64,000 nt of DNA from an uncultured Pseudomonadota bacterium (GCA_947306185.1 CAMZFU010000001.1:23952-87951), one strand, 5' to 3'; shown: positions 39,488 to 39,764, numbered from the stretch's first letter. Numbers and translations are program-made. The notes: a model not told the origin generated them from the sequence alone.

Positions 39488-39510
39488 CTTGCCCCGGTGG
39501 GCAAGTTTTG
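39488..39510 (-). terminator. Terminator hairpin after tRNA-fMet 3'-end duplicate
   Basis: CTTGCCCcggtGGGCAAGtttt (+ strand). On the minus strand it is followed by a T-run. Confidence 0.55.
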
Positions 39511-39516
39511 AAACTC

Positions 39517-39536
39517 TGGTTGCGGGGGATGATTTC
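39517..39536 (-). repeat. Direct repeat: partial copy of tRNA-fMet 3' end including CCA
   Basis: +strand tggttgcgggggatgatttc vs tRNA tggttgcgggggatggatttg at 39688-39708 (one indel). Confidence 0.8.
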
Positions 39537-39654
39537 GCTCGCGCGGCAACTGCGGATTTTTGCCTTTGGCAAACCGGCGTGTTTCCACCCGCCTAATCCT
39601 TGTGGTGAACCACCTTACCCCGGTGATTCAACCATCATAACTATTAAAATAAAA

Positions 39655-39675
39655 ATGTGACCGTATTGGCCACAT
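39655..39675 (-). terminator. Terminator hairpin immediately 3' of tRNA-fMet
   Basis: atgtgaccgtattggccacat flanked by A/T runs. Confidence 0.6.
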
Positions 39676-39687
39676 TTTCATTTTAAC

Positions 39688-39764
39688 TGGTTGCGGGGGA
39701 TGGATTTGAACCACCGACCTTCAGGTTATGAGCCTGACGAGCTACCGGACTGCTCTACCCCGCG
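39688..39764 (-). tRNA. Initiator tRNA-fMet (anticodon CAT)
   Basis: Reverse complement CGCGGGGTAGAGCAGTCCGGTAGCTCGTCAGGCTCATAACCTGAAGGTCGGTGGTTCAAATCCATCCCCCGCAACCA. C1-A72 mismatch. Near-identical to E. coli tRNA-fMet. Confidence 0.85.

What the first reader, a model, noticed from the sequence alone, without database searches (positions are those of the whole stretch)
39488..39764. Second case: tRNA-fMet with downstream direct copy of its 3' end, enclosing a ~130-nt structured element
TGGTTGCGGGGGATG(G)ATTT, the acceptor 3' strand plus CCA of tRNA-fMet, is duplicated 171 bp downstream (39517-39536). Again the tRNA is followed by a terminator hairpin, then a ~130-nt stem-rich segment (ggtggttcaccac; tttgccaaaggcaaa), then the CCA-ending copy and another ccgggg-containing terminator. 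The parallel with the tRNA-Met locus (same spacing, both copies followed by a ttcaaa…ccgggg hairpin) suggests a recurring genetic element or an organised RNA feature rather than random decay. The adjacent genes (ASCH/DUF4406 pair, paralog B) look accessory.
Basis: seen in the sequence. Interest (0 to 1): 0.55.

Follow-up and report, generated by a model that had tools for sequence, protein, structure and literature searches.

The report
Tiny structured cassettes behind tRNA-Met genes
The duplicated tRNA end marks one copy of a family of about 170-base, protein-less, strongly folded cassettes that are present or absent behind the two methionine tRNA genes of rumen Alphaproteobacteria and carry arms matched to whichever tRNA they sit behind. 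I found no description of such a small mobile element, and the enzyme that moves it is unknown.

Summary
tRNA-fMet (39688-39764, minus strand) is followed 171 nt downstream by an exact 16-nt copy of its 3' end; chance expectation is 0.

It is not decay. The identical tRNA-fMet occurs in 29 species of gut Alphaproteobacteria ('Candidatus Enterousia'). 22 of 26 informative loci carry one or more cassettes at this spot, and L021 has a precisely empty site.

Each cassette runs: terminator hairpin, a degenerate antisense copy of the tRNA 3' region, a sense copy of the T-stem 5' half, a 70-95-nt scaffold, then the sense copy of the rest (T-loop to CCA).

The type-A scaffold fold is supported by covariation: 87% of cells paired against 31-42% in slid controls, and 12 pairs changed on both sides. 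G-U outnumbers A-C 29 to 8, which points to the tRNA-sense strand.

The elongator tRNA-Met locus (11681-11755) has the same set-up. In 64 metagenome contigs the same scaffold families recur there, with all three arms swapped to tRNA-Met. tRNA-Thr never has them (0 of 18).

There is no Rfam family, no cassette-encoded protein, and no recombinase in the window. The best reading is a non-autonomous integrative cassette moved in trans. The mover, and whether RNA or single-stranded DNA folds, are unresolved.

The parts
39688..39764 (-). tRNA-fMet (anticodon CAT, C1/A72 mismatch, CCA encoded). Its 3' end is the attachment point of the cassette.
   Evidence: ARAGORN; Rfam tRNA 64.4 bits. The identical 77-mer occurs in 29 species.
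39643..39687 (-). T: a long A/T-flanked hairpin directly after CCA. It is the cassette's own terminator for the tRNA.
   Evidence: Inverted repeat 39644-39662 / 39668-39686, 19 nt, 89% complementary. Folded in the minimum-free-energy structure. Every cassette in relatives starts with such a hairpin, and the stems change in a compensating way.
39622..39642 (-). Antisense arm (AGTTATGATGGTTGAATCACC): a degenerate reverse-complement copy of the tRNA's T-arm region (true antisense GATGGATTTGAACCACC). It forms the 5' strands of helices P0 and P1.
   Evidence: Read from the sequence. In L003, L019 and L024 the arm is a perfect 14-mer antisense match to the T-arm. P1 is 100% paired in 18 cassettes.
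39606..39621 (-). P1 loop (GGGGTAA, 39615-39621) plus sense arm 'a' (GGTGGTTCA, 39606-39614). Arm 'a' is a copy of the T-stem 5' strand and the start of the T-loop.
   Evidence: Coordinates. P1 pairs are 14-20 with 31-37 of alignment A2, with U-G/C-G alternation.
39536..39605 (-). Scaffold, type A, window variant. It is a three-way junction: P2 GGATT/AATCC; P3 GGCG..CGCC capped by GGAA; P4 TTTGCC-AAA-GGCAAA. A further P5 follows: CGC-GCGA-GCG.
   Evidence: P3 is 100% paired with 5 of 6 pairs changed on both sides. P2 and P4 each have 3 pairs changed on both sides. The same variant occurs in L014 and L019.
39517..39535 (-). Sense arm 'b': a copy of the tRNA 3' end from the T-loop through CCA (AAATC-ATCCCCCGCAACCA, one C shorter than the tRNA).
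   Evidence: The empty site in L021 joins exactly here.
39478..39516 (-). Native terminator of the locus. It follows the tRNA directly in the empty-site relative.
   Evidence: Terminator-like site 39484-39509. The window flank closely matches the L021 flank (80 of about 96 shared flank columns invariant across the three aligned loci).
11507..11680 (-). Parallel cassette behind elongator tRNA-Met (11681-11755). It runs: T 11646-11680, antisense arm 11619-11645, arm 'a' 11611-11618, scaffold 11526-11610, arm 'b' 11507-11525. The native terminator lies at 11471-11506.
   Evidence: The family consensus fold is a panhandle in which the antisense arm pairs with arm 'b'.

Best explanation
The duplicated tRNA end is the right-hand boundary of a roughly 170-bp, non-coding, non-autonomous integrative cassette inserted at the 3' end of tRNA-fMet.

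Shown here:
- The cassette belongs to a family confined, in the data searched, to the tRNA-fMet and tRNA-Met loci of rumen and gut Alphaproteobacteria ('Candidatus Enterousia' and relatives).
- It is present, absent, or stacked in tandem at exactly the same junction.
- It brings its own terminator hairpin.
- Its interior has a secondary structure maintained by compensatory changes on the tRNA-sense strand.
- It is modular. The same scaffolds occur behind either tRNA, flanked by three arms (antisense, sense 'a', sense 'b') that always match the resident tRNA.

Inferred:
- The unit moves by site-specific recombination within the shared 3'-terminal block of the tRNA, and the enzyme is supplied in trans.
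- The tRNA stays intact because the recombination block (the tRNA 3' end) is present on both partners, and the cassette brings a new terminator. This is what classical tRNA-targeting islands do.
- The arms fold on one strand so that the antisense arm pairs with 'a' and 'b'. This rebuilds a duplex image of the tRNA gene's T-arm and 3' end, with the scaffold branching out at the T-loop. A folded single-stranded attachment site would look like this, as in phage CTX or integron attC sites.

Not decided: whether the folding molecule is single-stranded DNA or a transcript, and which enzyme acts.
For: - Duplication real and non-random.
- Identical tRNA-fMet in 29 species, with cassettes in 22 of 26 informative loci.
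- Precise empty site: L021 lacks exactly the cassette and its flank closely matches the window's. L010 and L016 are also unoccupied.
- Tandem and nested arrays in L019, L026, L012, L014, L003, L024 and L025.
- In L001 a GNAT gene unit lies between two near-identical type-A units.
- Cassettes are 85-98% identical between species whose sequence upstream of the tRNA is only 55-64% identical.
- Structure: RNAalifold finds 20 pairs, 8 of them compensatory. The curated six-helix model is 87% paired against 31-42% when slid, has 12 pairs changed on both sides, and scores 0.314 against 0.147 in shuffles, with 0 of 500 shuffles reaching the observed value.
- Strand: 29 G-U cells against 8 A-C cells.
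- All 83 scaffold BLAST hits lie downstream of a Met or fMet tRNA and in its orientation.
- Scaffolds A2, A3, B and D occur at both loci, and their arms always match the local tRNA.
- A 3'-end copy lies within 500 nt of 45 of 86 Met/fMet tRNAs and of 0 of 18 tRNA-Thr.
- The Met-family consensus fold pairs the antisense arm with the whole 3' copy.
- The same tRNA-Met also hosts a classical integrase island with 45-nt att repeats (L065, L054), so this is a recombination hot spot.
- Neighbouring genes are cargo-like: GNAT, NADAR, Bro-N, ASCH.
Against: - No recombinase was found in any cassette, in the 64-kb window, or among genes next to the arrays. tblastn with the L065 integrase finds only L065 itself in about 700 kb of held sequence.
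- No excised form or junction was observed.
- GNRA-type tetraloops and tandem G-A pairs in the scaffold look more like RNA than like a DNA recombination site.
- Classical attP sites do not show this kind of covariation.
- Many distal 3' copies are truncated or mutated (7 of 22 at fMet, 16 of 34 at Met). Part of the pattern is therefore decay.
- Homologous recombination between conserved flanks, or homing driven by the GIY-YIG genes seen at the same junction, could spread cassettes without any site-specific enzyme.
- All comparators are MAGs or metagenome contigs.
Confidence: 0.5

Rival explanations
1. The cassette is above all a gene for a structured small RNA of about 125 nt. Its 3' end imitates the 3' part of the cognate tRNA. 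It is made from its own weak promoter or by read-through. The duplication exists because the RNA needs that end for processing, stability, or binding a tRNA-recognising protein. Copy-number change is by ordinary recombination between the repeats.
For: Covariation on the tRNA-sense strand, with G-U outnumbering A-C. Hairpins capped by GGAA, GAAA, GUAA and GCGA, and tandem G-A pairs replaced by Watson-Crick pairs in other variants. Every intact unit is followed by a terminator. A promoter-like site GTCACA-16-TATGAT ends just before P1 in the window. TGGTATAGT (extended -10-like) is common before Met-locus cassettes. In the Met family, AAGGG and AGUGG pair with CCCUU and CCGCU of the copy, giving a minihelix-like end.
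Against: The promoter is not conserved: TATGAT, TTTGAT, TCCGAT, or none in the GTGTGTTGTG group. The window scan is no richer in promoters than shuffles. A strong hairpin terminator sits directly upstream. The CCA and acceptor part of the copy is often lost while AAATCCATCC is kept. No Rfam family matches. This reading does not by itself explain why the arms are re-matched to a second tRNA.
Confidence: 0.25
2. The folded nucleic acid acts as a guide, analogous to IS110 bridge RNAs or IS1111 seekRNAs. The antisense arm reads the top strand to the left of the T-loop and the sense 3' copy reads the bottom strand to the right. A trans-acting recombinase is thereby directed to whichever tRNA gene the arms specify, and the scaffold is the protein-binding handle.
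For: The scaffold is constant and the arms are exchangeable. Among the cassettes listed the arms match the local tRNA without exception. The arms cover opposite strands on the two sides of one point in the T-loop. No cassette-encoded protein exists.
Against: The arms are largely paired with each other in cis (P0, P1 and the panhandle), not displayed in loops. No IS110-like or other recombinase gene lies next to any copy. The arm lengths (9-20 nt) and the 20-nt direct repeat differ from known bridge RNAs. A target-mimicking attP explains the same data.
Confidence: 0.1
3. There is no dedicated mobility or function. These are decaying leftovers of larger tRNA-integrated islands, or of tandem tRNA duplications, shuffled by homologous recombination and by homing nucleases active at this hot spot.
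For: Truncated copies and mosaics are common. Integrase islands and GIY-YIG genes occupy the same junction. The type-A arm 'a' looks like tRNA sequence with a 4-nt deletion.
Against: Unit size is uniform (171 and 174 nt here; 160-186 nt in relatives). Compensatory changes keep six helices. Orientation is strict in 83 of 83 hits. The same architecture was rebuilt for two tRNAs with four scaffold families. Cassettes are much better conserved than the flanks.
Confidence: 0.1
4. This is a retroelement-like origin. The sense-antisense-sense pattern of tRNA 3' pieces around hairpins arises from snap-back or tRNA-primed reverse transcription, as with primer-binding sites of LTR elements or the tRNA-capturing Mauriceville retroplasmid.
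For: The antisense arm begins with TGG(T), complementary to the CCA end, directly after the hairpin. The palindrome is centred on the terminator (I1 at the Met locus).
Against: The arm is a poor primer-binding site: only about 5 perfect bases and then mismatches. CCA is genome-encoded here, so the classic test for an RNA intermediate is not available. No reverse transcriptase was seen in the window or the loci.
Confidence: 0.05

Closest known systems
tRNA-gene-targeting genomic islands and prophages with tyrosine integrases (attL/attR formed by a duplicated tRNA 3' segment; tandem arrays at one tRNA or tmRNA gene). From my own knowledge of Williams 2002 NAR; also seen here in L065.
   Same: Direct repeat of the tRNA 3' end. 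An intact tRNA is kept at the proximal end. A displaced partial copy sits at the distal end. The element supplies a terminator. Successive insertions stack up. Cargo genes are accessory.
   Different: About 170 bp instead of kilobases. No integrase or any other gene. The interior is a covarying folded scaffold. There is an extra antisense copy of the tRNA segment. The distal copy is split in the T-loop. The classical island at the same tRNA uses a different, 45-nt repeat starting in the anticodon loop.
Cis-mobilisable elements (CIMEs) and other non-autonomous att-flanked elements. From my own knowledge; described in Streptococcus.
   Same: Flanked by att repeats, lacking recombination genes, presumed to be moved in trans.
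   Different: CIMEs are deletion derivatives of several kilobases, with no conserved folded core and no target-mimicking inverted arm.
Integron gene cassettes, attC sites and CALIN arrays
   Same: Arrays of small units. Each ends in a strand-specific, imperfectly palindromic site conserved in structure more than in sequence. There is no recombinase inside the units. Cargo such as GNAT acetyltransferases is typical. The site is thought to fold as single-stranded DNA.
   Different: No intI, attI or Pc was found. The array starts at a tRNA 3' end. The repeat is 19-20 nt of tRNA. The RYYYAAC/GTTRRRY boxes are not general: tRNA-Met ends in CTACCA.
Phage CTX and other Xer-exploiting elements: a folded single-stranded attP made of two inverted target-like sites
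   Same: After integration the order is site, spacer, inverted site, as with tRNA end, hairpin T, antisense arm here. The element carries no recombinase. The duplex image of the target is made by intrastrand pairing.
   Different: The target is a tRNA gene and not dif. The element is 40 times smaller. The sense strand of the mimic is interrupted by the scaffold. Involvement of Xer is untested.
IS110 bridge RNA, IS1111 seekRNA and IS200/IS605 omega RNA
   Same: A constant structured scaffold sits next to the element end. Exchangeable segments match the target on both strands.
   Different: Those RNAs sit beside their recombinase or nuclease gene. Their guides are short and lie in loops. They leave no 20-nt repeat. 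None is known to target tRNA T-loops. There is no Rfam hit here.
tRNA-like 3' structures (viral TLS, mascRNA, bacterial YrlA)
   Same: A non-tRNA molecule ending in an acceptor/T-arm-like helix, with CCA.
   Different: Here the 3' segment is an exact copy of the neighbouring gene and marks an insertion boundary. ARAGORN and the Rfam tRNA model do not recognise the second copy.

Membership tests
Integrase-type integrative element at a tRNA gene | Flanked by direct repeats identical to the tRNA 3' segment, with an intact tRNA at one end | tested here: met
   16-20 nt repeat at tRNA-fMet and 30 nt at tRNA-Met.
Integrase-type integrative element at a tRNA gene | Occupied and precisely empty sites among relatives | tested here: met
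   L021 aligned against the window and L029; L010 and L016 are also unoccupied.
Integrase-type integrative element at a tRNA gene | Encodes its own integrase | tested here: not met
   The cassette is about 170 bp and has no ORF. No integrase in the 64-kb window or in genes beside the arrays. Only L065 has one, and it belongs to a separate island.
Integron cassette / attC | intI gene and attI at the head of the array | tested here: not met
   The arrays start at the tRNA. No Phage_integrase hit among neighbouring proteins.
Integron cassette / attC | R''/R' core boxes RYYYAAC and GTTRRRY, and extrahelical bases | tested here: inconclusive
   GCAAC/GTTGC motifs occur in fMet cassettes, but the tRNA-Met versions lack AAC/GTT cores. 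No attC model was available.
Any described RNA family (Rfam 15) | Covariance-model match at or near the gathering score | tested here: not met
   Only tRNAs reach threshold in the window and 12 loci. Permissive scans of four cassette types give chance-level hits only.
tRNA gene or pseudogene (second copy) | Cloverleaf recognised by ARAGORN or the Rfam tRNA model | tested here: not met
   No call over 39517-39642 or 11507-11645.
IS110-type bridge-RNA element | DEDD/serine recombinase gene adjacent to the RNA, within the element | tested here: not met
   No ORF in the cassette. Neighbouring genes are cargo or housekeeping.
IS110-type bridge-RNA element | Guide segments matching both strands of the target around the crossover | tested here: inconclusive
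   The antisense arm and sense arm flank one T-loop position and always match the local tRNA. However, they are predicted to pair in cis.
Self-cleaving ribozymes (hammerhead considered) | Conserved catalytic core (CUGANGA ... GAAA) around a three-way junction | tested here: not met
   The CGAAA and GAUGAG of common type-A variants are replaced by Watson-Crick pairs in the window variant. No Rfam ribozyme hit.
Phage- or plasmid-borne element | Homologous sequence on viral contigs, phage genomes or plasmids | tested here: not met
   0 hits for three cassette patterns in IMG/VR. No blastn match in phages or plasmids.

The most novel reading that the evidence does not exclude
The cassettes are a natural, re-targetable insertion module. 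A folded single strand (RNA or DNA) carries a protein-binding scaffold plus arms that specify the target tRNA gene by base complementarity or mimicry. Swapping the arms moves the same scaffold from tRNA-fMet to tRNA-Met. The enzyme is a host or trans-acting recombinase not yet linked to nucleic-acid-specified targeting.
Probability: 0.2. Interest if true: 0.9.

Novelty: new variant of a known kind. Interest (0 to 1): 0.7.

Why it matters
tRNA genes are the classic landing sites of mobile DNA, but the known occupants are kilobase-sized and carry their own integrase. Here the landing site is occupied by minimal units of about 170 bp. Each consists only of a terminator, a covarying folded core and three pieces of the target tRNA.

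The same cores are found re-fitted to a second tRNA. This raises the question of how little is needed to be an integrative element. It also shows a natural case in which target choice is written in short exchangeable nucleic-acid arms.

If the arms determine the target, this would be a new route to programmable insertion at safe sites next to essential genes. If the core is an expressed RNA, it is a new family of structured RNAs in an uncultured, genome-reduced gut lineage.

There is also a practical consequence for genome annotation. Partial tRNA copies 150-190 nt behind tRNA-Met and tRNA-fMet genes in these MAGs are not assembly errors.

Tried and rejected
- Known RNA family: rejected. Rfam at gathering and permissive thresholds gave nothing on the window and 13 loci.
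- Second tRNA or pseudogene: ARAGORN and the tRNA model are negative. A 77-nt register gives 5 acceptor-like pairs in the window, but this is not conserved in relatives.
- Hammerhead-like core in type A (CGAAA ... GAUGAG around a three-way junction): rejected, because the window, L001 and L019 variants replace these bases with Watson-Crick pairs.
- TnpB/omega-RNA-like reading (scaffold plus a 20-nt guide equal to the tRNA end): rejected by reasoning. The guide would also match the restored tRNA in the occupied site, so the element would target itself.
- Simple MITE with inverted ends TGGTA...TACCA: rejected, because the insertion always includes the extra hairpin T, and the ends change with the tRNA.
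- Phage or plasmid origin: no matches.
- Search for a recombinase: Pfam on 40 window proteins and 51 array-neighbour proteins, clustering of 184 ORFs downstream of tRNA-Met, and tblastn with the one integrase found. Only L065 carries an integrase, and it belongs to a classical island with a different att repeat.
- Literature searches for an RNA-guided tyrosine recombinase, a folded single-stranded attP at tRNA genes, and Enterousia biology returned nothing describing these cassettes. One search failed on syntax.
- A single column register for helix P0 does not fit both 5'-arm variants (GATGG-TT and GGGTTT). P0 therefore scores only 77% paired.

Full report
OBSERVATION

The window holds four tRNA genes. 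The one at 39688-39764 on the minus strand has anticodon CAT and a C1/A72 mismatch, so it is an initiator tRNA-fMet. The 16-mer CTGGTTGCGGGGGATG occurs exactly twice in the 64 kb, at 39687-39702 and 39516-39531. None is expected by chance. On the tRNA strand the copy reads AAATC-ATCCCCCGCAACCA+G. That is the 3' half of the T-loop, the T-stem 3' strand, the acceptor 3' strand and CCA.

A 19-bp hairpin follows the tRNA. A terminator-like hairpin follows the copy. The stretch between has 47-56% G+C in a genome of about 30% and folds with z = -5.0. The elongator tRNA-Met at 11681-11755 shows the same picture: a 30-nt repeat spaced 174 nt and z = -4.8.

WHO CARRIES IT

The exact 77-nt tRNA-fMet was found in 29 GTDB species. 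All are uncultured rumen or gut Alphaproteobacteria, and several are named 'Candidatus Enterousia'. Of the 26 loci with enough downstream sequence, 22 carry recognisable cassettes directly behind the tRNA. Of these, 15 have a full 3'-end copy and 7 have a truncated or diverged one.

L021 has the tRNA followed at once by the same native terminator and flank that follow the copy in the window. The alignment shows a clean gap covering exactly the cassette. L010 and L016 are also unoccupied. Several loci carry two or more units in tandem or nested: L019, L026, L012, L014, L003, L024, L025. In L001 a GNAT gene with its own promoter sits between two nearly identical units.

Cassettes are 85-98% identical between species whose DNA upstream of the tRNA is only 55-64% identical.

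ANATOMY

Reading the tRNA strand, every intact unit has the same order:
- T, a long A/T-flanked hairpin.
- An antisense arm, which is a degenerate reverse complement of the tRNA 3' region. In L003, L019 and L024 it is a perfect 14-mer, GGATTTGAACCACC.
- A short loop.
- Sense arm 'a' (GGTGGTTCA), the T-stem 5' strand and the start of the T-loop.
- A scaffold of 70-95 nt.
- Sense arm 'b', the rest of the tRNA from the T-loop to CCA.

The distal copy is therefore a tRNA 3' portion split in its T-loop by the scaffold and preceded by its own complement. At least four scaffold families occur behind tRNA-fMet: A with sub-variants, A2, B and D. A separate hairpin module, C, also occurs there.

STRUCTURE

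On 18 type-A units RNAalifold predicts 20 pairs, 8 of them with compensatory changes. A curated six-helix model was then counted on the same alignment:
- P0: antisense arm with arm 'b'.
- P1: antisense arm with arm 'a'.
- P2: closes a three-way junction.
- P3: capped by GGAA, GAAA, GUAA or GGCA.
- P4: variable.
- P5.

This model is 87% paired, against 31-42% when the partners are slid. It has 12 pairs changed on both sides. Its covariation score is 0.314 against 0.147 in shuffles, and 0 of 500 shuffles reach the observed value. P3 is 100% paired, with 5 of 6 pairs covarying. P2 alternates between Watson-Crick pairs (window, L001) and tandem G-A pairs (common variant).

G-U cells outnumber A-C cells 29 to 8, so the folded strand is the tRNA-sense strand. 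No Rfam family matches any cassette type. No similar DNA exists in the phage, plasmid or viral-contig collections.

THE SECOND tRNA, AND MODULARITY

The exact elongator tRNA-Met was found on 64 rumen metagenome contigs. About 40 of the 60 informative ones carry cassettes. The same scaffold families recur there: A2, A3, B and D, at 77-85% identity to the fMet versions.

All three arms, however, are those of tRNA-Met:
- Antisense arm TGGTATAGTCGCGAAAGATGAGGACCCC, against the true antisense TGGTAGCGGCGAAGGGATTCGGACCCC.
- Arm 'a' GGGGTCCGA.
- Arm 'b' AATCCCTTCGCCGCTACCA.

Across the cassettes tabulated the arms always match the resident tRNA. All 83 scaffold hits lie downstream of, and in the same orientation as, a Met or fMet tRNA. 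In fMet arrays, scaffold D sits inside the junction between scaffold B and arm 'b' (GAGCGA|...|AATCC). This mimics the T-loop position it occupies at tRNA-Met.

The neighbouring tRNA-Thr never has a downstream copy of its end (0 of 18), against 45 of 86 for the two Met tRNAs. For the Met-window family the consensus fold is a panhandle. The antisense arm pairs with the whole 3' copy including CCA, and an internal AGGG pairs with CCCU of the copy.

CONTEXT

The window is ordinary chromosome. It encodes AspRS, GyrB, LpxC, LpxK, DnaG, TopA, RodA, PBP2, MreC and PheS, and no integrase or transposase. Genes behind the arrays are small accessory ones: GNAT, NADAR, Bro-N, ASCH and DUF4406-like, among others.

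The interval between tRNA-Met and tRNA-Thr varies from 0.15 to about 7 kb. A classical island occupies the same tRNA-Met in L065. It carries a 473-aa tyrosine integrase (HTH_17, Arm-DNA-bind_3, Phage_integrase), and its att repeat is 45 nt, starting in the anticodon loop. Older cassettes lie distal to it. L054 has the same kind of attR. Small GIY-YIG genes are inserted exactly after CCA in several contigs. These tRNA ends are therefore recombination hot spots used by several kinds of element.

MECHANISM

What is shown:
- An insertion polymorphism with fixed boundaries.
- Stacking of units.
- A selected fold on one strand.
- Arms that track the target tRNA.

What I infer as most likely (about 0.5) is a non-autonomous cassette moved in trans by site-specific recombination within the tRNA's 3'-terminal block. 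Variants in the distal copy fall mostly in its 5' part. Examples are AAATC-ATCC in four unrelated cassettes, AATTCC in L001 and L002, and AAACCC in L007 and L028. CCCCCGCAACCA stays invariant when present. This places the exchange in the last dozen bases.

The intrastrand pairing of the antisense arm with 'a' and 'b' rebuilds a duplex image of the tRNA gene end. The integrated order is site, hairpin, inverted site. That is what integration of a folded single-stranded attachment site produces in phage CTX, and it resembles the logic of integron attC sites. It would also explain why no recombinase is carried.

Against this:
- No partner enzyme was found.
- The GNRA-type loops and tandem G-A pairs look RNA-like.
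- Promoter evidence is weak and not conserved.

The rivals are:
- An expressed small RNA with a tRNA-like end (0.25).
- A true guide function of the bridge-RNA kind (0.1).
- Mere remnants shuffled by homologous recombination or homing (0.1).
- A retro-type origin (0.05).

The RNA and DNA readings are not mutually exclusive.

NOVELTY

Direct repeats of tRNA ends, arrays at tRNA genes and att-flanked non-autonomous elements are known. The following are not, to my knowledge or in the searches made:
- A unit of about 170 bp.
- A covarying scaffold.
- The inverted tRNA-derived arm.
- The split distal copy.
- Re-use of the same scaffolds with arms re-matched to a second tRNA.

I file it as a new variant of a known kind, namely tRNA-targeting integrative elements. 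There is roughly a one-in-five chance that it is something categorically new: target choice written in exchangeable nucleic-acid arms.

LIMITS

- All comparators are MAGs or metagenome contigs.
- Only loci around the two tRNAs were available, so genome-wide distribution and the mover are unknown.
- Helix P0 needs two registers.
- Counts depend on BLAST probes and miss divergent cassettes. L022, for example, is scored as empty but carries an A2-like unit.

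Noticed in passing
window 6687-11506 (between tRNA-Thr 6613-6686 and the tRNA-Met cassette): The interval between tRNA-Met and tRNA-Thr is a variable island. It is 150 nt in L080 and L060 and up to about 7 kb in L072. In the window it is about 5 kb and holds a DNA-alkylation-repair gene, a flavodoxin and three ORFs with no Pfam hit.
   Followed up: partly
L065 940-4547 (also L054, an attR near 4500): A classical integrative island sits at tRNA-Met. 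It has a 473-aa tyrosine integrase (HTH_17 + Arm-DNA-bind_3 + Phage_integrase), a DUF3800 gene and TTTACAC-type repeats near both ends. Its 45-nt att repeat starts in the anticodon loop. Older small cassettes lie distal to it.
   Followed up: partly
L044, L051, L054, L073, L075 directly after the CCA of tRNA-Met or of a cassette copy; L086 8475-8762: Small GIY-YIG nuclease ORFs (about 96 aa; Pfam hit confirmed for L086 only, inferred from the translated sequence in the others). They are preceded by a G+C-rich inverted-repeat leader (TCCGTCTTCGC...CGTCGCGA...AGACGGA) and inserted exactly at the tRNA end with no duplicated tRNA segment. The 'type C' hairpin modules at both tRNA loci share the leader's motif.
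   Followed up: partly
window 39394-39470; L001 500-620; L026: A conserved leader precedes whatever cargo gene follows the tRNA-fMet array. It is an inverted repeat GTTCGAAAGT...ACTTTCGAAC overlapping a near-consensus promoter (TTGTTA-18-TATAAT with TG in the window). This could be an operator or a shared regulatory module.
   Followed up: no
L001 297-1430: A unit of about 940 bp carrying a GNAT acetyltransferase gene lies between two near-identical type-A cassettes. It ends in ...CTGCACACACTGCACAACCA, a degenerate tRNA-fMet-like end. This suggests gene-bearing cassettes use the same junction.
   Followed up: partly
window 39488-39499 and 39614-39625: The P1 loop region of the cassette (CACCGGGGTAAG) is 11 of 12 identical to the loop region of the native terminator (CACCGGGGCAAG). 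It could be chance or gene conversion (D2).
   Followed up: no
window 13769-16069, 34197-36497, 39820-41364: Two 766-aa paralogues and a related 514-aa protein share a conserved block (ITKDTV.P.A..I.C.YSI). None has a Pfam match. One lies directly upstream of tRNA-fMet.
   Followed up: no
window 38679-39385: The ASCH ORF (38987-39385) and the DUF4406/nucleoside-deoxyribosyltransferase-like ORF (38679-39107 as listed, TTG start) overlap by 121 nt as called. The true start of the second is probably further downstream. Both Pfam hits are weak.
   Followed up: no
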